Shown piece by piece: positions 36,238 to 60,502 of a stretch of 64,000 nucleotides of DNA. The position numbers and the translations under genes were made by a program. This stretch comes from an uncultured Gammaproteobacteria bacterium (lineage in GTDB: Bacteria > Patescibacteriota > Patescibacteriia > SG8-24 > DYFX01). Numbering within the stretch: position 1 is the stretch's first letter; every line of letters begins with the position of its first letter. Below the pieces are notes generated by a model. It did not search any database and was not told where the DNA came from. It saw nothing but the letters and a program-made list of their open reading frames with translations. The stretch lies in contig CAZHHN010000001.1 in NCBI GenBank assembly GCA_964532415.1, forward strand, positions 11,946-75,945, given 5' to 3'.

Positions 36238-36579
36238 ATGGAAATCAGTCGCTCAACGAAGAAGCTGTCATTGTGGACCGTGCTTCTCGGTGTATTGCCA
36301 TTTGTGATTTATGCCGTTGAACGTGCCCTTGGGAAACTGCCGTCTGCAACTGATTGGTACAAGGGCGGTACCAATCATGGTCCTTGGCGATGGGAGCTCG
36401 AAGGTTTCACGATACTTTATCCAGTTATGATTCTGGCGGTGATAACTGCTATCAAGTCGATTGCCGAAGGGCAGGAAAGAAAAAAGTGGCAACCAGTTCT
36501 GATCGGTGGGGGGCTGATCGTGCTTCAAGCCGTCATCCTGTATGCCCAGTTAGTGGTACTTAATTGGACGGTGAATTGA
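36238..36579 (+). CDS. Small 3-TM membrane protein, putative immunity protein for the RHS C-terminal toxin
   Basis: Starts 1 nt after the RHS stop (TAGTATG). Three hydrophobic helices. Low GC like the toxin tip. Confidence 0.5.
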   Translation: MEISRSTKKLSLWTVLLGVLPFVIYAVERALGKLPSATDWYKGGTNHGPWRWELEGFTILYPVMILAVITAIKSIAEGQERKKWQPVLIGGGLIVLQAVILYAQLVVLNWTVN

Positions 36580-36598
36580 ATCACCAACGAGCCTACCT

Positions 36599-36853
36599 AT
36601 GAACACGGCTTCAAATGAAGAACTGGTGAAGACTGTGGGTGCGGTCGTTATTGGTACGCCTAGCGGCCTTAAGGCGCAGGAGGCGCAAGCGGAATTAAAT
36701 AGGAGGTTGATTGAGAAAATGGAGGCGCTCGTGACCAGTCTCGACAAGAATAATGAGACTACAGAACGGTTCAATCGCCGAACGCTTCAATTGACTTGGG
36801 CGATGGCGGTACTTGCTGTCGTGCAAATTGTGATTCCGTTCCTGCGCAATTGA
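36599..36853 (+). CDS. Small hypothetical protein with C-terminal TM helix
   Basis: 84-aa ORF in the low-GC cassette. Hydrophobic tail TWAMAVLAVVQIVIPFL. Confidence 0.35.
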   Translation: MNTASNEELVKTVGAVVIGTPSGLKAQEAQAELNRRLIEKMEALVTSLDKNNETTERFNRRTLQLTWAMAVLAVVQIVIPFLRN

Positions 36854-36955
36854 TGCGCGTGGATCCGCGACTATCGCGTGGTTCTTCTTCCATGCTCCGA
36901 CGTAGGGGTTTAGGAAAGGCATCGTAGGCTGATTGGTTAAAGCAAAGAAGAGAGT

Positions 36956-38149
36956 ATGCTGGACAAGCGACTAGAAGATGTTGCGGTCGGGGACATTCAA
37001 GCGTTGGTGGAGAACAGTGTCCTCGAAAGAAAGACATTAGAGTACAAGTCAGAACTTCCCGAGAAAATAGACGACAGTAAAAGGGAGTTTTTGAAGGATG
37101 TTTCTTCCTTCGCGAACACTCTCGGAGGCGACTTGATATACGGTGTTCGAGAAGATGAGGGAATTTTAGATCCTAAAATCGGCTTGGTCGCGATAGACGC
37201 CGACGCGGAGATAGCGAGGTTGGAAAACATTATCCGCGACGGGATCTCCCCGAGAATTTCTGTGGAGATACGACCGATTCAATGGGAAGACAAAACTGTG
37301 TTGGTGCTGCGGATACGGGCCAGCCTGCAAGCGCCACATCGGGTCGTCTTTGGCGGGCACGACAAGTTTTACAAGCGGAACAGCAACGGAAAGTATCCAA
37401 TGGATGTGGGCGAGCTGCGGGTCGCCTTCTTGCAGTCAGGCGAGATTGTGGAACGTATCCGGCGGTTCCGGGAAGTACGGATTTCGGATATACAAGCGGA
37501 TGAGGCACCGCTACCCGTGATGTCGACAGATAGGTTTATCGGGATTCACATCATTCCTCTGTCCGCATTCAATGCCACGCAACGCTTGTCGCCACGAGTC
37601 ATCGAGGATATGAACGATGGCAAGGAGAGTCTGTTCACGCCGTTTCCGAATGTTCGCGGCTACAGCCACCACATCAATCTGGAGGGTGTAGTCCTCTACA
37701 CACCCAATCAGGAAAAAGGGTCGTGGCACTATACGCAGCTGTATCGTGACGGAAAAATCGAAGTATATGACAGTGTGAAGCTGACTGGGGCGGCGGGGTC
37801 ACAAAACAAGACGATTGCTATGTATGATTTGGAGGTATCGACGCTGGCTTATGTAGATAAGATGCGAAAGATGCTCGATAAGCTTGGCTTTGACCCGCCC
37901 TATTATGTGTTTGTTTCCTTGGTTGGAGTGCACGGCCTGACGGTGCATGTGCCATTTGGCACATTCGAACGCCCCGTGCCGATCAGGCAGAAGGACTTGC
38001 TGTTGCCAGAAGTGCTGTTGGAAAAATCCGAGGATGATCTCGCTCAGAAATTGAAGCCTGTGTTCGATATGGTTTGGAACGCGGCCGGTATCAGCGAGTC
38101 GCCAAATTTCACAGAGCAAGCTCCTTCGGTAGAACAAGTTGCTGGTTAG
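36956..38149 (+). CDS. AlbA_2 (Schlafen-like divergent AAA / putative DNA-binding) domain protein
   Basis: N-terminal ...ERKTLEYKSELPEKIDDSKREFLKDVSSFANTLGGDLIYGV... matches the AlbA_2 signature (ExK...L...aaFaNt.GG.L.iGV). 397 aa, low GC. Confidence 0.65.
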   Translation: MLDKRLEDVAVGDIQALVENSVLERKTLEYKSELPEKIDDSKREFLKDVSSFANTLGGDLIYGVREDEGILDPKIGLVAIDADAEIARLENIIRDGISPRISVEIRPIQWEDKTVLVLRIRASLQAPHRVVFGGHDKFYKRNSNGKYPMDVGELRVAFLQSGEIVERIRRFREVRISDIQADEAPLPVMSTDRFIGIHIIPLSAFNATQRLSPRVIEDMNDGKESLFTPFPNVRGYSHHINLEGVVLYTPNQEKGSWHYTQLYRDGKIEVYDSVKLTGAAGSQNKTIAMYDLEVSTLAYVDKMRKMLDKLGFDPPYYVFVSLVGVHGLTVHVPFGTFERPVPIRQKDLLLPEVLLEKSEDDLAQKLKPVFDMVWNAAGISESPNFTEQAPSVEQVAG

Positions 38150-38314
38150 GGTGGGCTCGCGGATTACTTGTTGGATTTTCTTCCGTGCCCGCGCTGGGGT
38201 TTAGGAAAGGTGTCGTTACAACCGTCTATCCGCCGTTCTGCTTCATTACCCTACCTAGAGCGCCTGTTGGTAACCAAAAAGCGTCGATTAACTCCCGCTG
38301 TACGCCCAAGCCCC

Positions 38315-38794
38315 ATGCTCACCAGTCAAGCTCGGCGTGTCGTCCTGGATACGAGCGTCGTCATCTCCGGGATCCACGCCAAGGAGAACGACCATGAGGA
38401 ATCGAACTTGCTGCTGATCCTGCGGTGGTTCGAGGCCGGACATTTCTTGCTTGAATCCAACGCCAAGATACTCGATGAGTACCGCCGCAAGATGCGCGAG
38501 AAGCTGCAAGATGGTTTCCTGAAAAAGCCGGAGGTGGTCGGGATCTATTTCAATATGTTTCAGGACAAGGCGCTGTTCGATCGGCTTCTCGTTACTCCTC
38601 CGATTTACATTCCGGCTGATCCCACCGACAACATCTACTTCGCCAGCAACAACTGCCTCACCGCAGACTACTTGGTTACGTCGAACACCAAACACTTCAC
38701 TTCGGAGATCCAGCAGGATCTAGTACAGCTTGGGAGCAAACTGAGAATCGTCACGCCGGCAGAGTTCGTGGCAGCAGTCAGGCAGGAGAATTGA
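38315..38794 (+). CDS. PIN-domain nuclease (TA-toxin-like PIN family)
   Basis: RVVLDTSVVISGI at the N-terminus (first acidic PIN residue). ...YLVTSNTKHF near the C-terminus (third/fourth acidic region). About 160 aa. The ORF-track start at 38168 is probably too early. Confidence 0.65.
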   Translation: MLTSQARRVVLDTSVVISGIHAKENDHEESNLLLILRWFEAGHFLLESNAKILDEYRRKMREKLQDGFLKKPEVVGIYFNMFQDKALFDRLLVTPPIYIPADPTDNIYFASNNCLTADYLVTSNTKHFTSEIQQDLVQLGSKLRIVTPAEFVAAVRQEN

Positions 38795-39076: not shown

Positions 39077-39151
39077 CGGAATGTAGCTCAGCGGTAGAGC
39101 GCTCGCTTCGGGTGCGAGAGGTCGCAGGTTCAATCCCTGTCATTCCGACCA
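39077..39151 (+). tRNA. tRNA-Pro (anticodon CGG)
   Basis: Acceptor CGGAATG/CATTCCG, D-arm GCTC-AGCGGTA-GAGC, anticodon stem CTCGC/GCGAG with loop TTCGGGT, T-loop TTCAATC, encoded CCA. Confidence 0.8.
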
Positions 39152-50038: not shown

Positions 50039-50877
50039 CCACCTCCGTGGCGCTCCATCCAGAGTATGGTGATGGGACGCGGGGCGTCAAGCAGGTGATC
50101 TTGACGGCCGCGGGCATTCGGGGTAGGAAGGTGGACAGGAGGTTGAACGTGAAACTGCCCGCCGACATGCTCGGGGAAACCACCGTTGCCATTCTCGATT
50201 TCTTGGTGTTCGACTGCCTATTGCCGGCCGTCGATGCCTTCGACCGTCTCATGGAGTCATGGGTATGGCTGTGGGTGACCACATTGCTCTACGGCAGTGA
50301 AATGTGACCGGCCGCTTGCCTACGCCGAGCTTGGTTCTGCTGGTGCTGTCCCTGCCGGATGGCCATGGCGATGAACTACGCTACCGGCCGAAGACGTTCG
50401 TGACGCCTGACCGCATGCGGGAATCAGGCGCGCAAGAAGCGTAAATCGCTCCGTCTCTCCCGACGCGCTTCGACGGATCGTCTCCTGTCCCGCCGCTGGC
50501 GCTAGTCCGTTCTCAGCCCTGACACGTTCAGGGTTTTCTTTTATCCGCGCAAAAAGAAAGACGGACTCGGAGGTGAGAGTCCGTCCAGAGAGGCGCTTCC
50601 TTGCATAAGCGCCCCATCCCGGTGCCGAAGGCTCGTCGGCCTGGCAAAGAGCGGTTCTCACCTCAAGGGGAGATCACGCTCAATGGCACGTTGGATAGGC
50701 AAGGGAACTCCGCGGGTGGGACGGAGCGCTCGAATTGCCTATCTCAACTTGGGATGATCGCCTGGTCTCGTGCATGTCCTGTGAACGAGACCTTTTCTCG
50801 ACGTCCACGCGGCCGCGGGTTGGGACCGCGGCTGGGGTCGTCGAAGGCCTAAACCTACCACCAACGTTCCAAATTCG

Positions 50878-51339
50878 TCAAGTGGCGGCGGCCTCGCGAC
50901 GCTTCATGGCGCGGACCGTTCCGATCCCCAGGATCACGCCGAAGAGCGAGAGGATAAAGCAGGCGAACACGGGGAGCCAGACGACTGTCAATGAATCGAT
51001 CTCTGCATGGCGCGGATTCGCCGGGTCGTAACGGACGTTGACGGTCTCGCCGACCACGGGCTGCGCGCCACCGCCCATCGAAGACGTGAACTGGTAGGAA
51101 ACGTGTCCGGGCGTCGAAAACTCGACGACCGGCGCATACGTCGGGACCCTTTTTCTGGTTGTACTGGAAACGGGTGCCCGGCCGACGACTTTTCCGATGG
51201 CCGGCGCTCCGCCTAAGATTTGGGTGGCACGCACCAGGAAAATGACCGTTCCGATCGTGCAGAGCGCCGCTCCGCCGAAACCGACGATGATCCCGTTTTT
51301 CAGGGGATTTTTCCGAAGGGTCTCGCCGGAGGTTTCCAT
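50878..51339 (-). CDS. Hypothetical membrane protein (two TM helices flanking a small beta domain, DUF3592-like)
   Basis: TM at residues ~15-35 and ~115-140. 153-aa ORF with protein-like composition. Confidence 0.45.
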   Translation of the reverse strand: METSGETLRKNPLKNGIIVGFGGAALCTIGTVIFLVRATQILGGAPAIGKVVGRAPVSSTTRKRVPTYAPVVEFSTPGHVSYQFTSSMGGGAQPVVGETVNVRYDPANPRHAEIDSLTVVWLPVFACFILSLFGVILGIGTVRAMKRREAAAT

Positions 51340-51395
51340 GGGTAAAAGTTTGGATTACGTCTCTATCGTAGCAGAGAATGGCTCTTGACGTCTTC

Positions 51396-51422
51396 TTAGC
51401 ACTCCATTAAAGTGAGTGCCAG
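51396..51422 (+). promoter_or_regulatory. CIRCE-like HrcA operator overlapping a sigma70-like promoter
   Basis: TTAGCACTC-N9-GAGTGCCAG versus the CIRCE consensus TTAGCACTC-N9-GAGTGCTAA. TTGACG at 51385-51390 and TAAAGT at 51408-51413 are 17 nt apart. Confidence 0.75.
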
Positions 51423-51424
51423 TT

Positions 51425-52126
51425 ATGGAAGCCTTGGATGCCCGCAAGGAAACGCTGCTGAAACTGACGGTTCGGCGCTACATCGAAAGCGCGGAACCGG
51501 TCGGTTCGGCTTGGCTGGCCGACGAATCCGGTCTGGACGTTTCTTCGGCGACGATTCGCAATGAGCTGGCCGATTTGGAAGAGATGGGCTACCTGATGCA
51601 GCCGCATACCTCGGCTGGCCGCGCCCCGTCTGAAACAGGGTATCGTTACTACGTCGACCGCTTTCTGGAAAAGAAAAAGCCCGGCGTCTCCGTTCAGGAA
51701 GCATTGGCAGAGGCGATCGGTGAGGCTGACGATGGCGCGGATCGCCTGCGTCGCGCGGCCAAGACGCTGGCCGGGCTTTCCGGGGAATCGGTCCTGGCCG
51801 CCTTCCGCCCGCGCGACGTCTACTACACCGGACTTTCCAACCTGTTCGCCAAGCCGGAGTTCCGGCAGATCGCCCTGGTCGCCTCGATGTCGCGCATGCT
51901 CGACCACCTCGATGAGGTCATGGAACAGGTCTTTCCGAAAGTCGAGAGCGGTCTCAGCGTCTGGATCGGAAGCGAGAATCCGTTCGGCGCCGAATGTGGA
52001 CTGCTCATCGCCCGCGCGCCGATCGGAAATGCCCACGGCATCCTCGGAGTGCTCGGCCCGATGCGCATGGACTACGACGTCGGCGCGGGCCTGCTCGAGA
52101 CGGCGATCGAGAGACTGCAAGTCTAA
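51425..52126 (+). CDS. hrcA: Heat-inducible transcription repressor HrcA
   Basis: N-terminal winged helix ...RRYIESAEPVGSAWLADESGLDVSSATIRNELADLEEMGYLMQPHTSAGRAPSETGYRYYVD... The ATG at 51425 is immediately after CIRCE. Confidence 0.85.
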   Translation: MEALDARKETLLKLTVRRYIESAEPVGSAWLADESGLDVSSATIRNELADLEEMGYLMQPHTSAGRAPSETGYRYYVDRFLEKKKPGVSVQEALAEAIGEADDGADRLRRAAKTLAGLSGESVLAAFRPRDVYYTGLSNLFAKPEFRQIALVASMSRMLDHLDEVMEQVFPKVESGLSVWIGSENPFGAECGLLIARAPIGNAHGILGVLGPMRMDYDVGAGLLETAIERLQV

Positions 52127-52273
52127 TGCGCCCGCGCTCCAAACAAATTTCAAAGCGTGTCCGCGATGGACGGGTGGCACCGCAGGCGATATCTCCTGAG
52201 GCGCGCGACAGCGCCGAACGGGGATGTCGCCGAGAGGTGACAGGACCCGTCCGTCGCGAACATCAAGATTTCT

Positions 52274-52789
52274 ATGCCTGACGAAGAAAAGAAAACCGAA
52301 GAACACCAAGGCTGCGGGGACGGCGTCTGCAGGATGCCGCAGAAGCCAGCCGATCTCGAGAAGAAGCTGGAAGAGGCCGTCAGCCAGTCGTTGCGCGCGC
52401 TGGCCGATTACCAGAATCTCCAGAAGGAAGTCGCCCGCGAGCGCGCCGAGATGGGTTCCTACGCCGTTCTGCGCGTGGTCGAGCGCTTCCTGCCCGTCTT
52501 CGACAACTTCAACACCGCCATGAGCCACATGCCCACGTCCGACGACAAGGCGGTGGTCAACTGGGCGGTCGGCGTCGGCTTCATTCAGAAGCAGCTGGAA
52601 GAAGCGCTGCGCTCCCTGGGCCTCACGCCCATCAAGACCGTCGGCGAGCCGTTCGACGCCGCCAGGCATGAAGCCGTCGGCGAGGAAGCATCCGACAGGG
52701 AACACGGCATCATCCTGAAGGAAGTCCAATCCGGCTACGAGATCCTCGGCAAAGTCGTCCGCCCCGCCAAAGTCATCATCGCTCAATAA
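52274..52789 (+). CDS. grpE: Nucleotide exchange factor GrpE
   Basis: ADYQNLQKEV..., the FDP..HEAV motif and GrpE beta-sheet C-terminus. Lies between hrcA and dnaK. Confidence 0.85.
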   Translation: MPDEEKKTEEHQGCGDGVCRMPQKPADLEKKLEEAVSQSLRALADYQNLQKEVARERAEMGSYAVLRVVERFLPVFDNFNTAMSHMPTSDDKAVVNWAVGVGFIQKQLEEALRSLGLTPIKTVGEPFDAARHEAVGEEASDREHGIILKEVQSGYEILGKVVRPAKVIIAQ

Positions 52790-52810
52790 ACCAAACCCAA
52801 CCCAACGCCC

Positions 52811-53140
52811 ATGGCACCTCTCGTCTTCCAAAGCGAACGCGAATGGCACTCCTTCTACGAGAGCCACCGGTTTTCGTTCAAGGAATGGGAAAACTTCCTG
52901 ATGTTCTTCCAGCTGGACGGCAACATGCTGATCACCATCCCGTCGCGCCGCGTAAGCGACGACGGCACGCCGGAGCGCCAGCAGAAGATCAAGCTGCGCG
53001 ACCTGCCCAAGCACAAGGGCGGCATTTCCAATCTGAAGTTCAGCGTCCAGACCGAAAACAAGCTGGTCACCTTCGACACCAGCGGCCCGGTCTTCAAGGC
53101 GGGATATGAAATGCCGAAGGGGGAGAGGGCGTCGGCGTGA
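52811..53140 (+). CDS. Hypothetical small protein inserted between grpE and dnaK
   Basis: 109-aa ORF, moderately high GC, no recognisable motifs. Its stop overlaps the start of the next gene. Confidence 0.4.
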   Translation: MAPLVFQSEREWHSFYESHRFSFKEWENFLMFFQLDGNMLITIPSRRVSDDGTPERQQKIKLRDLPKHKGGISNLKFSVQTENKLVTFDTSGPVFKAGYEMPKGERASA

Positions 53141-53670
53141 GTGATATGGATACGTCCGTTAAGTTGCACCCCGAACAATTCCGCTCAGCACTTGAAAAGC
53201 TGTCTGAGGATAAGGTTGCGGATCTTGTTGATGGGTTCGTGGCAAGCGGGCTCAATCTCTCCAAAGAAGAAAAGCAGGCGGTCGAATTCGTTTTCTGGCT
53301 GAGTGCCCGGATTGAATCATTTCTGGGACGCGCCATTCAGGAAGTCTTGGGTACAGATGCTCGGGTTGGAAAGTATGTTGCTTCTCATTTGCGCGAAGTG
53401 CGGCAAGAAGTGTTGAAACAAACGACTGATGATCTGTATCTGGGCGGCAAAGTGCAATTAATGAGCAGGATTATTTCTGCTATTAAGGGCAAAAAATTCA
53501 AACTGGCTGAAGAGTTCCTCGGAACCATCAATCGATTGAGAAATGATATCTCGCATAACCGTTTCAAGTATCTAGAGTATAAGGGCCAGCTTGTTACCGA
53601 ACTAGCAACCAAGAAAAGAATTATCGGTGATTTCAAGGATATTTTTCAAGACATCGGCAAGAAAGAATAA
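53137..53670 (+). CDS. Low-GC HEPN-like protein (Rx4H motif)
   Basis: 177-aa ORF, visibly AT-richer than its neighbours. RLRNDISHNRFKY fits the HEPN Rx4-6H motif near the C-terminal helix. Confidence 0.45.
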   Translation: MSDMDTSVKLHPEQFRSALEKLSEDKVADLVDGFVASGLNLSKEEKQAVEFVFWLSARIESFLGRAIQEVLGTDARVGKYVASHLREVRQEVLKQTTDDLYLGGKVQLMSRIISAIKGKKFKLAEEFLGTINRLRNDISHNRFKYLEYKGQLVTELATKKRIIGDFKDIFQDIGKKE

Positions 53671-53672
53671 CT

Positions 53673-54074
53673 ATGTCCCTCCTCCCAAAAAATATTTCTC
53701 CTTTCGATGAGGAACGCGGTCTGGCCGATCTCTCGAAAGGCTTCATCCCGGCGGTCGACGTCTACGAGAACGGCAGCGACGTGATCGTGGAGACGCCGCT
53801 CGCGGGCGTCGATCCGAAGGACGTCGAGGTCACGGTCGAGGGCGGCGTGCTGACGGTGCGCGGCAAAACCGAGCACCGCAAGGAAGTCGACGAGAAGGAT
53901 TATCTCTATAAGGAAGTCCGCTACGGTGCCTTCCAGCGTAAGATCGCCCTGCCCGCCCTCGTCGTCGGCGAGAAAGCCCAGGCGACATCGGAACACGGCA
54001 TGCTGCGCATCACGATTCCGAAGGCCGAAGGCGATAAGAAGCAGCCGGTGAAGGTGGAAATCAAGAAGAGATGA
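53673..54074 (+). CDS. Hsp20 / alpha-crystallin family small heat-shock protein
   Basis: PAVDVYENGSDVIVETPLAGVDPKDVEVTVEGGVLTVRGK...LRITIPK is an alpha-crystallin domain. Confidence 0.85.
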   Translation: MSLLPKNISPFDEERGLADLSKGFIPAVDVYENGSDVIVETPLAGVDPKDVEVTVEGGVLTVRGKTEHRKEVDEKDYLYKEVRYGAFQRKIALPALVVGEKAQATSEHGMLRITIPKAEGDKKQPVKVEIKKR

Positions 54075-54136
54075 CGGCCGGGGAGGTCGCCTGCGGCGCC
54101 ACCCGCTGATTCGTGCATCAATTACATCAACTCTCT

Positions 54137-56044
54137 ATGCCAAAAATCCTCGGAATCGACCTCGGAACGACGAACTCGTGCATGGCCGTCATCGAAGGCG
54201 GCCAGCCGAAGGTGCTCGAAAACAAGGAAGGCGCGCGCACCACGCCGTCGATGGTGGCCGTTTCGAAAACCGGCGAGCGTTTGGTCGGCCAGCTCGCCAA
54301 GCGCCAGGCCGTCGTGAACCCGACCAACACGCTCTATTCGATCAAGCGCCTGATCGGTCGCCGCTGGGAAGACGCGGAAGTCCAGCGCGACGCCAAGCTC
54401 TTTCCTTTCAAGATCGTGAAGGCGGGGGAGGGCGCCAAGGTCGCCATGAGCGACAAGGAATATTCGCCGCAGGAAATCTCGGCCATGATCCTGCAGAAGC
54501 TCAAGGCCGACGCGGAAGAAAAACTGGGCGAGAAGATCGAGGAAGCCGTCATCACCGTGCCGGCCTACTTCGACGACGCGCAGAGACAGGCCACCAAGGA
54601 CGCCGGCGAGATTGCCGGCTTGAAAGTGCGCCGCATCATCAACGAGCCGACGGCCGCCGCGCTGGCCTACGGCTTCGACAAGAAGAAAGACGAAAAGATC
54701 GTGGTCTACGACCTGGGCGGCGGCACCTTCGACGTCTCGGTGCTGGAAGTCTCGGCCGACACGGTCGAAGTCAAAGCCACCAACGGAGACACGCACCTGG
54801 GCGGTGACGACTTCGACCAGATCCTGATCAACTGGATCGTCGGCGAGTTCAGGAAGTCCGACGGCATCGATCTCTCGAAAGATCCGCTGGCGCTCCAGCG
54901 CATCAAGGAAGCGGCCGAAAAGGCCAAGATCGAGCTCTCGACCGCGGCCACGACCGAAATTAACCAGCCGTTCATCGCCTCCGATCCGGCCACCGGTCCT
55001 AAACATTTGGTGCTGACGCTCTCGCGCTCCAAGCTCGAAGAGCTGGTCGGTGCGCTGGTCGAGAAAACGCTCGAACCGACCAAGAAGGCGCTCTCCGACG
55101 CCAAGCTGTCTGCTTCCGACATCAACGAAGTCGTCATGGTCGGCGGCATGACGCGCATGCCCCTCGTGCTCCAGACGGTCGAGAAGTTCTTCGGCAAGAA
55201 GCCGAACGTCAGCGTCAATCCGGACGAAGTCGTTGCGATCGGTGCGGCCGTTCAGGGCGGCGTCTTCCAGGGCGACGTCAAGGACGTGCTGCTGCTCGAC
55301 GTCACGCCGCTCTCGCTCGGCCTCGAAACGCTCGGCGGCGTCTCCACCAAGCTGATCGAGCGCAACACCACCATTCCGACCAGCAAAACGCAGGTCTTCT
55401 CGACCGCGGCCGACAACCAGCCCGGCGTTGAAATCCACGTGCTCCAGGGCGAGCGCGAAATGGCTTCCGACAACAAGTCGCTCGGGCGCTTCATGCTCGA
55501 CGGCATTCCGCCGGCGCCGCGCGGAGTTCCCCAGGTCGAAGTCACCTTCGATATCGACGCCAACGGCATCCTGAACGTCAAGGCCAGGGACAAGGCTTCC
55601 GGCAAGGAGCAGAAGATCACCATTACCGCTTCGACCGGCCTCTCGAAGGATGAAGTCGAGCGCATGAAGAAGGACGCCGAGGCGCACGCCGCCGAGGACA
55701 AGGCCAAGCGCGAGGCGATCGATCTCAAGAACAATGCCGAGACGATGATCTACACCACCGAAAAGATGGTGAAGGAGATGGGCGACAAGATGAAGCCGGA
55801 AGACAAAACGACGCTCGAAGAAAAAATCGAAGCGCTCAAGAAGGTCAAGGACTCCGCCGTGCCGGCCGATATCAAGAAAGCCGCCGAGGAACTCACCAAT
55901 CTGGCGCAGCGGATCGGCGGCGAGATGTACAAGGACCAGCCCGCCGGCGGAGAGGCCAAGCCCGACGACAAGTCCGCCGAAGGCGGATCCGCTTCTGGTG
56001 GAAAGGACGGCCCGATCGAGGGGGAAGTGGTCGACAAGAAATAA
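54137..56044 (+). CDS. dnaK: Chaperone DnaK (Hsp70)
   Basis: [36 protein letters not shown] and an EEVD-less C-terminus rich in G/E/K. Confidence 0.95.
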
Positions 56045-56051
56045 AAAAGAG

Positions 56052-56735
56052 TCAGTTACCCGACTCCTCGGAAGATGGCGCGGTCGGGACGCACGAGACG
56101 CAACGGCCCTTCTCGGCGGCGCAGAAGTGACACCAGATCATGTTCGCTCCGGCGGTCCAATGTCCGCAGTCGCGTGCTTTCGAAAGTACGGGCGTGTGGC
56201 GGGGCGGCGGACGGCAGTCCCTGCATCGAATACCGGCGACGCCACTGTGGCGATGCAACCCGAAAATGGCTCGTAATCGCTCGCGTTTCGGGATGCGGTG
56301 ATCCAACTCAGAAGCTGACATGGCCAGGACGATCTGTGCGTGGTCTCCCATGAGCGGCGCATGCGCCGTCAAAAGCGCGTGCGCGTCAACGTAACCGTAG
56401 ATCTTAAACAGGATCGTGAACAGGTCGATATCGGCCTCAACGACTTCGGCGGCGGCTTTCGCGATTTCCCGCTCCGCTTCCGAGATCGTCGGCTTGGTGC
56501 AGTGTTGGCAGAGCCGATCCTTGTAGGCGCAACGCTCGCAGAGGCGAATACGCAGGTCCGATGGCAGCGCCTGCCCTTCGCACCACCGCCCTGGGCACGG
56601 ACGACGCTGGGCGAGCCGTCGTTCGCGCGCGTCACGTCGATGAGGATCGCATGAGCCGGTCCAAGGCATCGGCTGGACCGGCGGTACCGGGGGCGGATTT
56701 TCAAACTCGGGCAAGCAAGGCTGGCAGAGATGCAT
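56052..56735 (-). CDS. Cys-rich hypothetical protein encoded antisense between dnaK and dnaJ
   Basis: 227-aa ORF with several CxxC-like pairs (CQPC, CERC...CQHC, CRDC, CVSC). The plus-strand alternatives here are short. Confidence 0.35.
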   Translation of the reverse strand: MHLCQPCLPEFENPPPVPPVQPMPWTGSCDPHRRDARERRLAQRRPCPGRWCEGQALPSDLRIRLCERCAYKDRLCQHCTKPTISEAEREIAKAAAEVVEADIDLFTILFKIYGYVDAHALLTAHAPLMGDHAQIVLAMSASELDHRIPKRERLRAIFGLHRHSGVAGIRCRDCRPPPRHTPVLSKARDCGHWTAGANMIWCHFCAAEKGRCVSCVPTAPSSEESGN

Positions 56736-56811
56736 GGCGGTCTCCTGGCATGAGGTCTCCCCCTACCGCTGCTCTCACCTAAACGTATTTGCCGCCTCCT
56801 GTCAAACACTT

Positions 56812-57876
56812 ATGGCCAAAGACTACTACAAGATCCTGGGTATCGAACGGAACGCTTCCGACGAGGAAATCAAGAAAGCCTTCCGGTCTTTGGCGCACAA
56901 ATACCATCCCGACAAGGAAGGCGGCAACGAGGCCAAGTTCAAGGAGATCAACGAGGCCTATCAGGTGCTGGGCGACCCCAAGAAAAAATCGCAGTACGAC
57001 CAGTTCGGCCAGACCTTCGACCAAGGCGGGGGCGGATTCGGCGGGCAGGGATTCGGCGGCTTCCAGGGCGCCAACTTCGACATGGGCGATCTTTCCGAGA
57101 TGTTCGGCGACATGTTCGGGATGGGCGGCGGCCGCGCGCGGCGCAGGGCGCAGGGCGGCGATATCGAAGTCAACGCAACGATCGGCTTCGCCGAAGCGGC
57201 CTTCGGCGTTGAGAAGACGATCGAACTTTACAAGCCCGTCCGGTGCGCGGCCTGTTCCGGCACCGGCATCCCGTCCGGCGCCAAAATGCACACGTGCAAA
57301 ACCTGCGGGGGTCAGGGGCGCGTGCGCCAGATGCAGCGGTCGATCCTCGGCAGCTTCGAGGCGGTTGTGGCCTGCGGCGCGTGCCACGGCACCGGCAACG
57401 TGCCGGAAAAGGAATGCAAAGAATGCGGCGGCGCCGGCGTCAGGCGCGAGAAGGTTTCGCTGCAGGTCAGGATCCCGGCCGGCATCGATCACGGCGAAAC
57501 GATCCGCATCCCGGGCCAGGGCGAAGCTGCCGGACACGGGGGAGCGCCCGGCGATCTGTACCTGCACGTCCGCGTCCAGTCCGATCCGCGTTTCGAGCGC
57601 GACGGGTCCGACGTCTACTCGAATCTGCGTATTCGATTCTCCGAGGCGGCACTGGGCGCGGAGCGGGAAATCGAAACGCTCGATGGGCCGGTCACGCTCA
57701 GGGTTCCGGCCGGCACGCAGTCCGGCGCGGAGATTCGCCTCAAAGGCCGTGGCGTCGTCAAACTGCGCGCGAGCGGCCGTGGCGACCATTTCGTGCGGGT
57801 GACGGTCGAAACGCCCTCCCATCTTTCACGGAAAACCCGACAGTTGATGGAGGAGCTGGGAAAAGAAGGTCTTTGA
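56812..57876 (+). CDS. dnaJ: Chaperone DnaJ
   Basis: J domain with HPD (KYHPDKEGG), a G/F-rich linker, four CxxCxGxG zinc-finger repeats and C-terminal CTD I/II. Confidence 0.9.
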   Translation: MAKDYYKILGIERNASDEEIKKAFRSLAHKYHPDKEGGNEAKFKEINEAYQVLGDPKKKSQYDQFGQTFDQGGGGFGGQGFGGFQGANFDMGDLSEMFGDMFGMGGGRARRRAQGGDIEVNATIGFAEAAFGVEKTIELYKPVRCAACSGTGIPSGAKMHTCKTCGGQGRVRQMQRSILGSFEAVVACGACHGTGNVPEKECKECGGAGVRREKVSLQVRIPAGIDHGETIRIPGQGEAAGHGGAPGDLYLHVRVQSDPRFERDGSDVYSNLRIRFSEAALGAEREIETLDGPVTLRVPAGTQSGAEIRLKGRGVVKLRASGRGDHFVRVTVETPSHLSRKTRQLMEELGKEGL

Positions 57877-57961
57877 ATCGAGCCAAAAAGGATCAGTTAT
57901 CCCCACGGCCAAAAATACGCAAAAAAGGTATACTGCAGACACTTTCACTTTGCCTCAACCT

Positions 57962-60502
57962 ATGCAGATCGACCCTGCCGTTCGGAAGTTGGCCGCCGCC
58001 CTGAGCGCCGCGGCGCTCTTCTCGTTCGCCTATGCCGCGCAGGCCCAGTTCACGGCGCCGACCTGCACGCCGCCGAACTGCAGCCCGGCCGTCATTCAGA
58101 ACATTCCGCTGACCGGATCGACCCAGAACGCCGGGATCAACATCAGCGGCGACATCAAGGCGGGCGCCACCTTCCAAGCCGCTCAGACGCTGCTTCCACT
58201 CGGTACGGTCGCCGCGCCAACCTATACGTTCGTCGGCGACACCAACACCGGTTTCTATTCGCCGGCCGTCGATCAAATCGGCATCACGACCGGCGGCGCC
58301 CAGCGCTTCCTCGTGAACGGCAGCGGCGCGACGGTCGCGACCGGCCAGCTGACCCTGCCGGTCGGCAGTGCGGCCGTTCCTGCCATGACTTTCGCCGGCG
58401 ATACCAACACCGGCATCTTCCATAACGCGGCCGATACCCTCAACCTCGCCACTAACGGTGTTTCGCGCCTCGCCGTCGATTCTGCCGGCGCCGTGACGGT
58501 CCCTGGCAACCTGACGGTCAGCGGTTCGCTGACGGCCACGTTCGCGGGCGACGGCAGCCTGCTCACCAACCTGAACGCCGGCAATATCGCAACCGGCACG
58601 CTGAACGACGCACGCCTGTCGTCCAACATCCCCAGGCTGAACGCCGCCAACGCCTTTACCGGCAACAATACCCTGAGCGGCATGTCTTCTTTTGGAAGTT
58701 CCGCGCTGGTTCTTGCCGCCGGCCAGAATCTGGTCTACGGCAATATCGCGACCGGCTCGACGGGCAACCTCCTGCTGCTGCAGAAAAACAGCGCCGATCA
58801 ATTCCGCGTCGATCCGTCCGGTAACATTGTTGCGGCCGGCGGCCTGACGGCCACCACCGGCACCTTCAGCGGTAACGTCAGCGTGGCCGGACAGAGCGTC
58901 TGCCGGGCCGACGGCACCAACTGCCCACCAACGATCAACGGAAGCGGTACCACCAATTTCGTCCTGAAATTCACTCCTTCCGGTAATGTCGTCGGCAACT
59001 CCCAGCTTCAGGATGACGGGACGGGCGTCGGCGTCGGCGGCGTTCCGGTCGCCGGCATCAAGCTTTCGGTCGCCGGCAATATCGGGATGTCGTCCGGTTC
59101 ATACCTATCCGCCATCAATAACGGAACCGGCGCGGTATTAAGGACGAGCCGGTCCGACAACACCCAGGTTGGCCAGATCAAGACCAACGGCTGGGGCAAC
59201 TTTTCGACCAGCAGCGGCCTGGCCGTCGGCTATGATTGGCCGAACAGCCCGCAATCCGGCCTGATCGTCAACGGTAACCTCGGCATCGGTATAGCTGCGC
59301 CGCTCGGAAAAGTACAGATCGCGACGAATGACGACACGAATCCCACCAGTGTGAGCGCCTGGGATGCGCGGCATTTCGTGGTCGGCCAGCCTGCCAACGC
59401 GGGCGCCGTCGGCATTTCATACAACAATACGGGAGGATACGGCATCATCGATGCGCTCTCTCCCGGCGTGGCCTGGAAGAATCTCATCCTTCAGAGCGGC
59501 GGCGGCAACGTCGGCATCGGCACGCTGGCCCCTTCCCAACGGCTGGAAGTGAACGGAACGGCCGCCGCTTCGAAAATCATCGCCGGCGGCGGAGCGTCAA
59601 GCAATTGGGCCGACGTCAACGCTCCGGTATTGATGGCCGGTTCGGTAATCTACTCCTACGGATCGATCTGCGCCGGTGAAAGCAACGGCAACTGCACCGG
59701 CAACGGCGGCGTGGTTATCGGCGGCAGCGACCCCAATGCCTGGACCAATCTTACGAGTAGCGGTAATTCGTTCTTCACCGGCAGGCTCGGCATCGGGACG
59801 AAGACGCCGACGGCGCCATTGGCGGTTGAGACTTGGGGAGACGACTACGCCGGCACCTTCTTCAACGGCAGTGCGGGATTTGGCGGTGCTTCCCGTGCCA
59901 TTTTTGCACAGGCGGGGAACTTTGCGGTCGGTGCTGGCACGGAGTATGCCATCCAAGCGGATGCTTATAGTAACGGTGCATCGGCCTATGCCCTTTATGC
60001 CACGGCAAGCTGCTTGAGCTGCGGAGGGGCCGCTTGGGGTGTGTATATCGGATCCGGCGGAGCGGCTAAACCGGGTGGAGGTCCGTGGAGCGCGACGTCC
60101 GATCGGCGCGTGAAAAAGGACATCACTCCGTTTAAGGAGGGTTTGAATGTTCTGCGCCAAATCAACCCGATCAACTACACCTATAACGGTCTTGGCGAAA
60201 TGCCGGAAGGTTTTAAGGCGGTCGGCGTGATCGCTCAGGATGTCAAGAAGATCGCGCCTTACATGGTCACGACTGATTATCGCAAGCTACGCCCGACCGA
60301 TACCGAAAAAACGCCGATCTATATGGTGGATCCGAATGACTTCACGTACATGACCATCAACGCCATCAAGGAACTCGATCTGCGGATCGACGGGCTCGAA
60401 GCCAGGGTCGCCGGGCGGCAGGACGACCAGGACCGGCGTATCCAAGCGCTGGAAGCCGAAGTCTCCGCGCTCCAGGCCGAAGTGAAGGCGTTAAAACCTT
60501 AG
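57962..60502 (+). CDS. Secreted tail-fibre-like protein with C-terminal intramolecular-chaperone (peptidase S74-like) domain and coiled-coil tail
   Basis: Signal peptide (AALSAAALFSFAYAAQAQ). Long G/T/N/A-rich beta-repeat region. C-terminal SDRRVKKDITPF...LRQINPINYTYNG...GVIAQDVKKIAPYMV...TINAIKELDLRI matches the S74 chaperone-of-endosialidase pattern. The final ~40 aa form heptad-like repeats. Confidence 0.65.
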   Translation: MQIDPAVRKLAAALSAAALFSFAYAAQAQFTAPTCTPPNCSPAVIQNIPLTGSTQNAGINISGDIKAGATFQAAQTLLPLGTVAAPTYTFVGDTNTGFYSPAVDQIGITTGGAQRFLVNGSGATVATGQLTLPVGSAAVPAMTFAGDTNTGIFHNAADTLNLATNGVSRLAVDSAGAVTVPGNLTVSGSLTATFAGDGSLLTNLNAGNIATGTLNDARLSSNIPRLNAANAFTGNNTLSGMSSFGSSALVLAAGQNLVYGNIATGSTGNLLLLQKNSADQFRVDPSGNIVAAGGLTATTGTFSGNVSVAGQSVCRADGTNCPPTINGSGTTNFVLKFTPSGNVVGNSQLQDDGTGVGVGGVPVAGIKLSVAGNIGMSSGSYLSAINNGTGAVLRTSRSDNTQVGQIKTNGWGNFSTSSGLAVGYDWPNSPQSGLIVNGNLGIGIAAPLGKVQIATNDDTNPTSVSAWDARHFVVGQPANAGAVGISYNNTGGYGIIDALSPGVAWKNLILQSGGGNVGIGTLAPSQRLEVNGTAAASKIIAGGGASSNWADVNAPVLMAGSVIYSYGSICAGESNGNCTGNGGVVIGGSDPNAWTNLTSSGNSFFTGRLGIGTKTPTAPLAVETWGDDYAGTFFNGSAGFGGASRAIFAQAGNFAVGAGTEYAIQADAYSNGASAYALYATASCLSCGGAAWGVYIGSGGAAKPGGGPWSATSDRRVKKDITPFKEGLNVLRQINPINYTYNGLGEMPEGFKAVGVIAQDVKKIAPYMVTTDYRKLRPTDTEKTPIYMVDPNDFTYMTINAIKELDLRIDGLEARVAGRQDDQDRRIQALEAEVSALQAEVKALKP

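What the first reader, a model, noticed from the sequence alone, without database searches (positions are those of the whole stretch)
52811..53670. Two-gene insertion, one of them low-GC and HEPN-like, splits the conserved hrcA-grpE-dnaK-dnaJ heat-shock operon
hrcA, grpE, dnaK and dnaJ are normally contiguous. Here a 109-aa ORF and a 177-aa ORF sit between grpE and the Hsp20 and dnaK genes. The 177-aa gene is visibly AT-richer than everything around it. It carries RLRNDISHNRFKY near its C-terminus, an Rx4H arrangement characteristic of HEPN RNase domains (Abi/toxin-like). Its start overlaps the stop of the 109-aa gene (ATGA-like junction), suggesting a two-gene unit. A HEPN toxin-like module embedded in, and co-transcribed with, the HrcA/CIRCE-controlled heat-shock operon would be an unusual regulatory coupling.
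Basis: partly seen in the sequence, partly recalled or inferred. Interest (0 to 1): 0.65.

Follow-up and report, generated by a model that had tools for sequence, protein, structure and literature searches.

The report
Foreign HEPN gene in heat-shock operon slot
One foreign gene for a predicted HEPN-type RNA-cutting enzyme sits in a single-gene slot inside the bacterium's heat-shock operon, and relatives carry other foreign genes there, including a known abortive-infection type, or nothing.

Summary
The ORFs, the low GC and the RLRNDISHNR motif are real. The "two-gene insertion" is not.

**ORF109 (52811-53140)** is native. Its GC3 is 0.855, and it lies between grpE and hsp20 in all 13 related lineages examined.

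**ORF177 (probable ATG 53146-53670, 174 aa)** is the only foreign gene.
- Its GC is 0.446 and GC3 0.48, the lowest-GC spot in the 64 kb window.
- It belongs to a sparse, unnamed family of about 30 distant relatives. E57, R132 and H137 are invariant and N133 nearly so (RNx3H).
- Weak matches in three profile libraries converge on HEPN RNase families. Fold search gave nothing.

**The ORF109|hsp20 junction is a variable cargo slot.**
- It is empty in 7 lineages and occupied in 6.
- Cargos are a 50%-identical allele of the same HEPN family, an AbiJ-like Abi_C HEPN protein, a membrane J-domain protein and two unknown cargos.
- All cargos are low-GC and packed within 1-9 nt of ORF109's stop. In five of six they end 1-4 nt before the hsp20 start.

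A conserved CIRCE operator lies upstream of hrcA and no terminator intervenes, so read-through transcription is inferred.

Most likely this is a stand-alone, trigger-dependent abortive-infection or stress RNase expressed with the chaperones. Activity, trigger and co-transcription are untested.

The parts
51385..51413 (+). Promoter-like site (TTGACG, 17 nt, TAAAGT) overlapping the CIRCE operator
   Evidence: Consensus scan only. It is the only + strand promoter-like site found in 50800-58200.
51396..51422 (+). CIRCE operator (TTAGCACTC-N9-GAGTGCCAG), ending 2 nt before the hrcA ATG
   Evidence: It has 2 mismatches to the consensus and is the single match in 64 kb, against 0.01 expected. An equivalent element lies upstream of hrcA in L001, L003, L004 and L021-L025.
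51425..52126 (+). hrcA (short form, about 233 aa; alternative GTG start at 51416 would overlap CIRCE)
   Evidence: Pfam HrcA C-terminal domain, E = 8.6e-17.
52274..52789 (+). grpE
   Evidence: Pfam GrpE, E = 1.8e-37.
52811..53140 (+). ORF109: a conserved, lineage-specific operon gene of unknown function, native to the genome and the upstream flank of the cargo slot
   Evidence: GC3 is 0.855. There are 11 homologues at 56-83% identity, always between grpE and hsp20. No Pfam, PADLOC or PHROG match. The AF2 model has pLDDT 70.9 and Foldseek against PDB found nothing significant.
53146..53670 (+). ORF177/P0001: the inserted cargo gene, a stand-alone minimal HEPN-superfamily protein of 174 aa (177 aa if GTG 53137 is used)
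   Evidence: GC is 0.446 and GC3 0.48. The family has 31 proteins among 1.84 billion representatives. Invariant F48, E57, R132 and H137. HEPN-clan matches in Pfam, PADLOC and NCBIfam. The gene is absent from this position in 7 relatives.
53314..53316 (+). Codon for E57, the invariant upstream acidic residue in the long helix 40-70 (FVFWxxxxxE motif)
   Evidence: Alignment A1, AF2 secondary structure, codon read.
53539..53556 (+). Codons for R132-N-D-I-S-H137, the predicted HEPN RNase active-site motif (Rx4H with N after R)
   Evidence: R132 and H137 are invariant and N133 is at least 90% conserved in 32 sequences. The profile aligns this motif with the LRNKVAH motif in the HEPN region of Csm6 (6tug; E = 0.31, weak).
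53673..54074 (+). hsp20, the downstream flank of the slot; its ATG lies 2 nt after the ORF177 stop
   Evidence: Pfam HSP20, E = 1.6e-17. The start sequence ATGTCCCT(C/T)CT is the same in all 11 junctions printed, and up to 15 nt are identical in several.
54137..56044 (+). dnaK, the last gene of the + strand unit
   Evidence: 87-94% identity to dnaK of relatives. No + strand terminator-like site was found between hrcA and the end of dnaK.
56052..56735 (-). Conserved Cys-rich gene on the opposite strand (227 aa) separating dnaK from dnaJ
   Evidence: tblastn: 44% identity in L001 and 33% in L021/L022 at the same position. A terminator-like hairpin lies just after its stop on the - strand.
56812..57876 (+). 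dnaJ, not contiguous with dnaK
   Evidence: ORF and translation. Pfam DnaJ domains are recorded for the orthologue in L001.

Best explanation
ORF177 is one horizontally acquired gene. It encodes a stand-alone minimal HEPN-domain protein, a predicted metal-independent endoribonuclease with the active-site motif R132-N-x3-H137 and an invariant E57. It occupies a hypervariable single-gene cargo slot between ORF109 and hsp20, inside the operon hrcA-grpE-ORF109-[slot]-hsp20-dnaK, which carries a CIRCE operator.

Shown here by computation:
- foreign composition;
- patchy presence at this position;
- the slot holds different low-GC cargos in relatives, including an AbiJ-like HEPN protein;
- conservation of the catalytic signature.

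Inferred:
- The gene has no promoter or terminator of its own. It is therefore transcribed by read-through from the CIRCE promoter, at a basal level with dnaK and more when HrcA is released by proteotoxic stress.
- It is probably translationally coupled to its neighbours, given spacers of 5 nt and 2 nt.
- Because no antitoxin partner is present and dnaK must be expressed constantly, the protein must be inactive by default.
- It most likely acts like single-gene HEPN abortive-infection proteins. A trigger, phage infection or severe proteotoxic stress, switches on RNA cleavage and arrests growth.
For: **Single-gene insertion**
- ORF177 GC3 is 0.48, against 0.76-0.86 in the neighbours and 0.855 in ORF109. 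It is the lowest-GC spot in the window.
- Other family members checked lie in genomes of 27-37% GC.
- The slot is empty, with 6-51 nt spacers, in L001/L003, L004, L017, L018, L024, L025 and the P0008 contig.

**Variable slot**
- L016 carries a 175-aa homologue at 50% identity.
- L023 carries a 412-aa protein matching Pfam Abi_C (E = 1.1e-20) and PADLOC AbiJ (E = 2.8e-23).
- L022 carries a J-domain protein with a hydrophobic C-terminal half. L020 carries a 238-aa protein matching phrog_13652. L021 carries two small ORFs.
- All cargos have GC 0.41-0.53 between flanks with GC3 0.78-0.95. Each cargo ATG lies 1-9 nt after the ORF109 stop. In five of the six, the cargo stop lies 1-4 nt before the hsp20 ATG.
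- L020-L023 have flanks 89-96% identical but four different cargos. The window and L016 are not sister lineages.
- For the two HEPN alleles dS is saturated, while dS is 0.46 in the adjacent ORF109.

**HEPN assignment**
- Invariant R132, H137 and E57, with N133 nearly invariant.
- Pfam matches among the 32 members: HEPN_RiboL-PSP 11, HEPN_Apea 8, plus Cthe2314, Abi_2, Csm6_HEPN, Swt1 and pEK499_p136.
- The family consensus scores 24.8 bits against HEPN_Apea, cut-off 24.4.
- PADLOC matches CARF_HEPN, Csx1, Csm6 and Cas13 models. NCBIfam matches Cas13e and Cas13b.
- The best PDB profile hit is Csm6, aligned on its RNxxxH motif.
- The AF2 model is all-alpha with pLDDT 89.7.

**Mobile or defence company of the family elsewhere**
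- Serine recombinases, type I restriction-modification genes, phage integrases, PemK and Prim-Pol lie nearby.

**Regulation**
- A CIRCE operator overlapping a promoter-like site is conserved in relatives. No + strand terminator or second promoter-like site lies between hrcA and dnaK.

**Intact gene in the population**
- Identical DNA occurs in five runs.
Against: - No named HEPN family is matched above threshold by ORF177 itself. Its best Pfam match is E = 0.053 (Csm6_HEPN).
- RNase activity, toxicity, the trigger and co-transcription are all untested.
- The slot is not exclusively defensive. One cargo is a J-domain co-chaperone-like protein and two are unknown.
- No relative of ORF177 was found in viral contigs, phage records or plasmid records.
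- Seven of thirteen lineages do without any cargo.
- The promoter and terminator scans are crude. Organisms with other signals would escape them.
Confidence: 0.6

Rival explanations
1. ORF109 and ORF177 form a mobile two-gene toxin-antitoxin or Abi module inserted together, with ORF109 as the antitoxin.
For: The genes are adjacent on the same strand and may overlap by 4 nt if GTG 53137 is the start. Many HEPN toxins have a small upstream partner.
Against: - ORF109 has native GC3 of 0.855.
- It is present in all 13 lineages: 7 without any cargo and 4 with unrelated cargo.
- It has no nucleotidyltransferase or antitoxin family match.
- The homologue and the public gene call favour ATG 53146, which removes the overlap.
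Confidence: 0.03
2. Neutral or selfish passenger. The junction simply tolerates insertions of clean ORFs that do not disturb dnaK expression. The HEPN gene has no functional link with heat shock and may be on its way to loss.
For: - More than half of the lineages have an empty slot.
- The cargos are heterogeneous.
- No partner gene is conserved among family members elsewhere.
Against: - Both HEPN alleles are full-length ORFs that keep every invariant residue despite 50% divergence.
- The gene is identical in five samples.
- Two unrelated HEPN families landed in the same slot. That is unexpected for random cargo, although six occupied cases are few.
Confidence: 0.2
3. Stress-physiology RNase rather than phage defence. 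The HEPN enzyme is induced with the chaperones and cleaves mRNA, tRNA or rRNA during proteotoxic stress. This lowers the folding load or induces dormancy, in the manner of the KEN (HEPN) RNase of Ire1 in the eukaryotic unfolded-protein response.
For: - The gene sits in the chaperone operon under CIRCE.
- Another cargo in the same slot is a J-domain protein, that is, chaperone-related.
- Anantharaman et al. 2013 (PMC3710099) list the KEN domains as HEPN, and sacsin as a protein combining Hsp90-like, DnaJ and HEPN modules.
Against: - The gene is foreign, patchy and fast-turning-over, which is typical of conflict genes rather than core physiology.
- Relatives of the family lie near recombinases and restriction-modification genes.
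- The AbiJ-like cargo belongs to a family known from phage abortive infection.
Confidence: 0.15
4. A catalytically inert HEPN or an unrelated helical protein, for example an RNA- or nucleotide-binding adaptor. The RNx3H motif would then serve binding rather than cleavage.
For: Some HEPN domains are non-catalytic (PMC3710099). The structural search gave no HEPN hit.
Against: Non-catalytic HEPN domains typically lose the Rx4-6H motif. Here R and H are invariant, together with the N after R and the upstream E.
Confidence: 0.05

Closest known systems
Single-gene HEPN abortive-infection proteins (AbiJ/Abi_C, AbiD/F Abi_2, AbiU2, AbiV, ApeA)
   Same: - A stand-alone gene with no adjacent antitoxin.
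- An Rx4-6H RNase signature.
- Foreign composition.
- Relatives in recombinase and restriction-modification neighbourhoods.
- An AbiJ-like protein occupies the identical slot in L023.
- The family consensus just reaches the Pfam HEPN_Apea threshold.
   Different: - At 174 aa it is a bare HEPN domain. It lacks the roughly 300-aa N-terminal domain of ApeA (PMC3710099) and the N-terminal region of AbiJ.
- ORF177 itself passes no family threshold.
- hhalign finds no relation to the L023 AbiJ-like protein.
- It is embedded in a chaperone operon, not in a plasmid or island.
HEPN-MNT (HepT-MntA) toxin-antitoxin pairs
   Same: A small HEPN protein of about 130-180 aa with an Rx4H motif.
   Different: No minimal nucleotidyltransferase gene lies next to it. 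ORF109 has no such match and exists without the HEPN gene. There is no match to Pfam PF05168.
Defence or variable hotspots between conserved core genes (E. coli PMC10121019; P. aeruginosa PMC10250203; P2/P4 hotspots PMC9122126)
   Same: Fixed conserved flanks, content that differs between close relatives, and low-GC cargo that includes known defence genes.
   Different: - As I recall those studies (only their titles and abstracts were seen here), such hotspots usually lie between transcription units or inside mobile elements. They hold multi-gene systems with their own signals and often integrases.
- Here the slot usually takes a single ORF (two small ORFs in L021). It has no integrase, no repeats and almost no non-coding DNA. 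It lies inside the heat-shock operon, upstream of dnaK.
- A full-text search returned no listed paper that mentions a dnaK operon together with defence hotspots.
Eukaryotic chaperone-linked HEPN RNases (Ire1 KEN domain, sacsin)
   Same: A HEPN domain functionally tied to the protein-folding stress machinery (PMC3710099).
   Different: Those are domain fusions in large eukaryotic proteins. Here the link is only shared operon and regulation, and it is inferred, not shown.
HagF of Chlamydia (PMC12154930)
   Same: A precedent for a small lineage-specific protein in the HrcA regulon. This is relevant to ORF109, not to ORF177.
   Different: No sequence relation was tested or claimed. The function of ORF109 is unknown.

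Membership tests
HEPN superfamily (as defined by Anantharaman et al. 2013, PMC3710099) | Conserved Rx4-6H motif with a polar residue (N, D or H) immediately after R | tested here: met
   R132 and H137 are invariant and N133 is at least 90% conserved in 32 family members.
HEPN superfamily | A second conserved acidic residue upstream of the motif (typically Ex3[KR]) | tested here: met
   E57 is invariant in the long helix 40-70. The spacing to the next basic residue is not the typical Ex3[KR] in ORF177 (ESFLGR).
HEPN superfamily | Four-helix up-down bundle, often with an insert between helices 2 and 3 | tested here: inconclusive
HEPN superfamily | Profile similarity to established HEPN families | tested here: met
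   Sub-threshold but convergent. HEPN-clan families dominate the Pfam, PADLOC and NCBIfam matches of the 32 members. The family consensus scores 24.8 bits against HEPN_Apea, cut-off 24.4. ORF177 alone reaches only E = 0.053 (Pfam Csm6_HEPN), 0.0097 (PADLOC Csx1) and 0.015 (PADLOC Csm6).
HEPN superfamily | Metal-independent endoRNase activity | not testable with these tools
   Needs biochemistry.
ApeA defence proteins | N-terminal beta-rich domain of about 300 aa fused to the HEPN domain | tested here: not met
   ORF177 is 174 aa and all-helical.
HEPN-MNT toxin-antitoxin | An adjacent minimal nucleotidyltransferase antitoxin gene that co-occurs with the HEPN gene | tested here: not met
   ORF109 has no Pfam or PADLOC match. 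It occurs without the HEPN gene in 11 of 13 lineages.
Csm6/Csx1 CRISPR ancillary RNases | CARF sensor domain plus HEPN, in a type III CRISPR context | tested here: not met
   Matches cover only the HEPN motif region. The protein is too short for a CARF domain. No cas genes lie nearby.
AbiJ (Abi_C) | Significant match to the Abi_C or AbiJ profiles | tested here: not met
   Not met for ORF177. Met for the different cargo in L023: Pfam E = 1.1e-20, PADLOC E = 2.8e-23.
HrcA/CIRCE regulon member | CIRCE inverted repeat at the operon promoter; gene on the same strand with no intervening terminator or promoter | tested here: met
   CIRCE at 51396-51422 with 2 mismatches, conserved in relatives. The scan found no + strand terminator or promoter-like site between hrcA and dnaK.
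HrcA/CIRCE regulon member | Heat-inducible, HrcA-dependent transcription | not testable with these tools
   Needs RNA data.
Variable (defence) hotspot between core genes | Conserved flanks with different content in close relatives, including known defence genes | tested here: met
   7 empty and 6 occupied lineages with 5 cargo types. One cargo is AbiJ-like.
Mobile element or integron cassette | Integrase, flanking repeats or attC-type recombination sites | tested here: not met
   Spacers of 1-9 nt upstream and 1-4 nt downstream leave no room for attC. Junction sequences share no repeat. No recombinase is present in the operon.

The most novel reading that the evidence does not exclude
The ORF109|hsp20 junction is a dedicated effector slot inside the operon. 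Through it, this lineage uses its proteotoxic-stress sensor (HrcA, released when chaperones are titrated) as an infection or damage alarm. Swappable single-gene effectors, such as HEPN RNases or membrane proteins, would be produced together with Hsp20 and DnaK. They might also be restrained by those chaperones, or work with the constant ORF109, until chaperone capacity is exhausted. This would be a bacterial counterpart of the unfolded-protein-response RNase Ire1 (KEN/HEPN).
Probability: 0.15. Interest if true: 0.85.

Novelty: new variant of a known kind. Interest (0 to 1): 0.58.

Why it matters
HEPN RNases and variable defence hotspots are both well known. A slot that usually takes one ORF, inside the CIRCE-controlled hrcA-dnaK operon, was not found in the searchable literature. 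It has recruited two unrelated HEPN families and other foreign genes.

If the coupling is functional, it would tie expression of an abortive-infection or stress RNase to the cell's protein-folding alarm. That is a simple and testable logic for how a toxin without an antitoxin is timed.

The finding also defines a small unnamed HEPN family with clear catalytic candidates (E57, R132, N133, H137). It also shows that ORF109 is a conserved, uncharacterised member of this lineage's heat-shock operon.

Tried and rejected
- **ORF109 structure.** Foldseek of the ORF109 model gave nothing significant.
- **PDB sequence searches.** ORF177 alone gave only chance-level hits. The family profile gave Csm6 at E = 0.31.
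- **Phage, plasmid and viral collections.** tblastn of ORF177 against plasmid and phage records found no match. With a six-sequence alignment it found no relative.
- **Relation between the two HEPN cargos.** hhalign of the family profile against the L023 AbiJ-like cargo found no relation.
- **A conserved partner gene.** The downstream neighbours of family members in L010 and L012 are unrelated. Other contexts show no common neighbour.
- **Antisense regulator inside ORF177.** A - strand promoter-like site lies at 53649..53620. Neither it nor the 83-aa antisense ORF is conserved in L016, so both were rejected as chance in AT-rich DNA.
- **Organism identity.** The one genome-collection hit is labelled only "uncultured bacterium". 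Cluster look-up gave no names. Sample accessions were not found in papers. The window has no rRNA gene. The taxon remains undetermined.
- **dN/dS of the two HEPN alleles.** dS is saturated, so no ratio could be computed.
Full report
**1. What is in the sequence**

The + strand between 51.4 and 56.0 kb encodes the following genes (Pfam):

| Gene | Coordinates | Evidence |
|---|---|---|
| hrcA | 51425-52126 (alternative GTG 51416) | Pfam HrcA, E = 8.6e-17 |
| grpE | 52274-52789 | Pfam GrpE, E = 1.8e-37 |
| ORF109 | 52811-53140 | no Pfam match |
| ORF177 | 53137 or 53146-53670 | see section 4 |
| hsp20 | 53673-54074 | Pfam HSP20, E = 1.6e-17 |
| dnaK | 54137-56044 | 87-94% identical to dnaK of relatives |

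- A CIRCE operator (TTAGCACTC-N9-GAGTGCCAG, 2 mismatches) lies at 51396-51422. It is the only match in 64 kb, against 0.01 expected. It overlaps the only + strand promoter-like site of the region.
- No + strand terminator-like site lies between hrcA and the end of dnaK.
- dnaJ (56812-57876) is separated from dnaK by a conserved gene on the opposite strand (56052-56735).
- Intergenic distances are 5 nt from ORF109 to ATG 53146 and 2 nt from ORF177 to hsp20.

**2. Composition**

- ORF177 has GC 0.446 and GC3 0.48. hrcA, grpE, ORF109, hsp20, dnaK and dnaJ have GC3 0.76-0.86, and ORF109 alone 0.855.
- The 300-nt minimum of 0.393 inside ORF177 is the lowest value in the window (mean 0.623, sd 0.049).
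- Only ORF177 is compositionally foreign. ORF109 is not.

**3. One gene was inserted, not two**

- ORF109 has 11 homologues at 56-83% identity.
- ORF177 has only itself and one weak hit in the 5.8-billion-protein word-indexed search.
- Contexts of the ORF109 homologues show hrcA-grpE-ORF109-hsp20-dnaK, and further downstream dnaJ and a Peptidase_S74 protein where the contig reaches that far. ORF109 is always present.
- ORF177 is absent from L001/L002/L003, L004, L017, L018, L024, L025 and the P0008 contig. In these the spacer from the ORF109 stop to the hsp20 ATG is only 6-51 nt.
- The insertion is not a chimera. The identical ORF177 DNA in the same context is on five contigs from five runs.
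- The likely start is ATG 53146. The public gene call (P0001, 174 aa) and the L016 homologue both begin there.

**4. What ORF177 is**

*The family*
- An exhaustive phmmer search of 1.84 billion representatives found 31 proteins at E < 1e-3. All are 131-238 aa and 25-47% identical over the matched stretches.
- In the 32-sequence alignment F48, E57, R132 and H137 are invariant. W51, N133 and Y145 are at least 90% conserved. The core motif is [LI]RNx[IV][AS]H[GN]R.
- This is the Rx4-6H motif with a polar residue after R, plus an upstream acidic residue. Those features define the HEPN RNase active site (PMC3710099, read).

*Profile matches*
- ORF177 alone gives only sub-threshold matches: Pfam Cas_Csm6_HEPN E = 0.055, PADLOC Csx1 0.0097 and Csm6 0.015.
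- Across the family the weak matches converge on HEPN families in three independent libraries.
  - Pfam: RiboL-PSP-HEPN in 11 of 32 members and Apea-like HEPN in 8 of 32 (best E = 2.7e-5). Cthe_2314, Abi_2, Csm6_HEPN, Swt1 and pEK499_p136 also match.
  - PADLOC: CARF_HEPN, Csx1, Csm6 and Cas13a/b/c.
  - NCBIfam: Cas13e and Cas13b.
- A majority consensus of the family scores 24.8 bits against HEPN_Apea, whose gathering cut-off is 24.4 (E = 3.3e-5).
- The best PDB hit of the family profile is Csm6 (6tug). It is aligned on its LRNKVAH motif, at E = 0.31.

*Structure*
- AlphaFold2 gives a confident all-helical model (pLDDT 89.7). E57 lies in a long helix (40-70). R132-N133 lie at the end of helix 117-136.
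- Foldseek found no significant neighbour in PDB or BFVD. The more sensitive libraries were unavailable.

*Conclusion*
- Membership of the HEPN superfamily is well supported by sequence. The fold test is open. ORF177 is not a member of any named HEPN family.

**5. The slot**

This is the main result. Mapping the window's proteins onto all related loci shows that the ORF109|hsp20 junction is occupied in five other lineages.

| Locus | Cargo | Family evidence | GC / GC3 |
|---|---|---|---|
| window | ORF177, 174 aa | HEPN (section 4) | 0.446 / 0.48 |
| L016 | 175 aa, 50% identical to ORF177 (BLASTP 4e-64) | same family; RNSICHNR motif kept | 0.407 / 0.40 |
| L023 | 412 aa | Pfam Abi_C 1.1e-20; PADLOC AbiJ 2.8e-23; phrog_23253 | 0.475 / 0.48 |
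| L020 | 238 aa | only phrog_13652, E = 1.5e-9 | 0.474 / 0.57 |
| L021 | 84-aa ORF plus 53-aa hydrophobic ORF | none significant | 0.467 / 0.53 |
| L022 | 195 aa, J domain plus hydrophobic C-terminal half | Pfam DnaJ 1.3e-16 | 0.527 / 0.67 |

- The flanking genes have GC3 0.78-0.95 in every case.
- Every cargo starts 1-9 nt after the ORF109 stop. Except in L021, every cargo ends 1-4 nt before the hsp20 ATG.
- A neighbour-joining tree of grpE + ORF109 + hsp20 shows that the window and L016 are not sisters. L016 groups with the empty L017 and L018 (88-89% identity).
- L020-L023 form a tight clade (89-96% identity) with four different cargos.
- Between the window and L016 the HEPN genes are 55.6% identical in DNA, with dN 0.45 and dS saturated. 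The adjacent ORF109 genes are 82% identical, with dS 0.46.
- The two alleles are therefore older than the split of their hosts. They were acquired or exchanged separately.
- Other family members lie in genomes of 27-37% GC, which fits a low-GC donor pool. Three of five such contexts contain recombinases, integrases, type I restriction-modification genes, PemK or Prim-Pol. Two are small islets among housekeeping genes.

**6. How it most likely works**

Shown here by computation:
- a foreign single gene;
- a conserved HEPN catalytic signature;
- a recurrently re-used slot that also holds an AbiJ-type HEPN protein;
- a CIRCE operator conserved upstream of hrcA in every relative whose upstream region is available.

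Inferred:
- The cargo has no promoter or terminator of its own, and dnaK lies downstream. Transcripts for hsp20 and dnaK therefore have to pass through it. It is expressed at a basal level and more strongly when HrcA repression is lifted.
- From established knowledge of the HrcA-GroEL titration model in Bacillus subtilis (my recollection, not checked here), that happens when unfolded proteins occupy the chaperonin.
- The short spacers suggest translational coupling.
- The "clean ORF" form of every cargo probably reflects selection against polar effects on dnaK.
- There is no antitoxin and expression is unavoidable. The RNase must therefore be inactive until triggered, as in single-gene HEPN Abi proteins.
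- Phage infection is known to load the chaperone system (general knowledge, not tested here). It is thus a plausible condition both for induction and for activation.
- I give about 0.85 to the HEPN assignment and 0.95 to the single-gene insertion into a variable slot. Read-through transcription gets about 0.7, and a defence or abortive-infection role about 0.45.

**7. Rivals**

- The two-gene toxin-antitoxin reading is essentially refuted (section 3).
- A neutral-passenger reading remains possible. Half the lineages have an empty slot and the cargos are heterogeneous.
- A purely physiological stress RNase, like Ire1's KEN domain, fits the location and the J-domain cargo. It fits the patchy, foreign and fast-turning-over nature of the gene poorly.
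- An inert HEPN is unlikely given the invariant catalytic residues.

**8. Comparison with what is known, and novelty**

- The protein is a new, unnamed family within a known superfamily.
- Variable hotspots between core genes are known (PMC10121019, PMC10250203, PMC9122126). As I recall those studies, they are larger and carry their own signals, often as mobile elements. Only their titles and abstracts were seen here.
- This slot usually takes one ORF, has no recombinase or repeats, and lies inside the CIRCE-controlled chaperone operon.
- The full-text search returned no listed paper that mentions a dnaK operon together with defence hotspots. It also gave no paper tying HEPN to a heat-shock operon. 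Absence from that library is not proof of novelty.
- I rate the finding a new variant of a known kind. Interest is moderate (0.58) because the functional coupling is entirely inferred.

**9. Limits**

- The organism is an uncultured bacterium of undetermined taxon.
- Only 13 lineages could be compared, many of them on short contigs.
- The promoter and terminator scans are simple consensus scans.
- How cargos enter the slot so precisely is unexplained.

Noticed in passing
window 56052-56735 (- strand): A Cys-rich 227-aa gene on the opposite strand lies between dnaK and dnaJ. It is conserved at the same position in relatives (44% identity in L001, 33% in L021/L022). It has only a weak sub-threshold Pfam hit (CRIPT) and no PADLOC or PHROG match. 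So dnaJ is not in the dnaK transcription unit in this lineage.
   Followed up: partly
window 35451-38100, next to tRNA-Pro at 39077-39151: This is the second low-GC stretch of the window (minimum 0.457). It covers the C-terminal tip (SLT domain) of a 2013-aa RHS/TcdB/SpvB-type polymorphic toxin (30195-36236) and a 124-aa ORF that could be its immunity gene. It also covers a Schlafen AlbA_2 protein (36956-38149). A PIN-domain protein (38168-38794) lies just past its end. This looks like a conflict-system islet.
   Followed up: partly
window 57950-60502: An 850-aa Gly/Thr/Asn-rich protein with a C-terminal Peptidase_S74 (intramolecular chaperone of tail-fibre type) domain lies directly after dnaJ. 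A homologous arrangement is present in L001.
   Followed up: no
window 51385-51425: The CIRCE operator overlaps the promoter-like -10 element and ends 2 nt before the hrcA ATG. This implies a nearly leaderless hrcA mRNA. HrcA here is only about 233 aa, and the other genes of the operon lack obvious Shine-Dalgarno sequences.
   Followed up: no
L024 2202-2516: In this relative the ORF109|hsp20 slot is empty. Two small hydrophobic ORFs (49 and 52 aa) sit instead between hsp20 and dnaK. A second junction of the operon may therefore also accept small cargo.
   Followed up: no
L004 6800-6890: The hsp20-dnaK spacer of this relative contains an imperfect inverted repeat (gtcatcctgagcggagcgaaggatc ... 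gattcctcgctgcgctcggaatgac). It resembles a small repeat element and is absent from the window.
   Followed up: no
L016 973-1500: The 175-aa homologue of ORF177 (50% identity) was returned by neither large protein search. It was found only through the genomic context of an ORF109 homologue. The family is therefore under-sampled in the protein collections, and more operon-embedded copies may exist.
   Followed up: partly
L022 4297-4884: The cargo in this relative is a J-domain protein with a hydrophobic C-terminal half. Its J domain matches several phage protein families (PHROGs). It is a possible foreign co-chaperone that could redirect the host DnaK encoded just downstream.
   Followed up: partly
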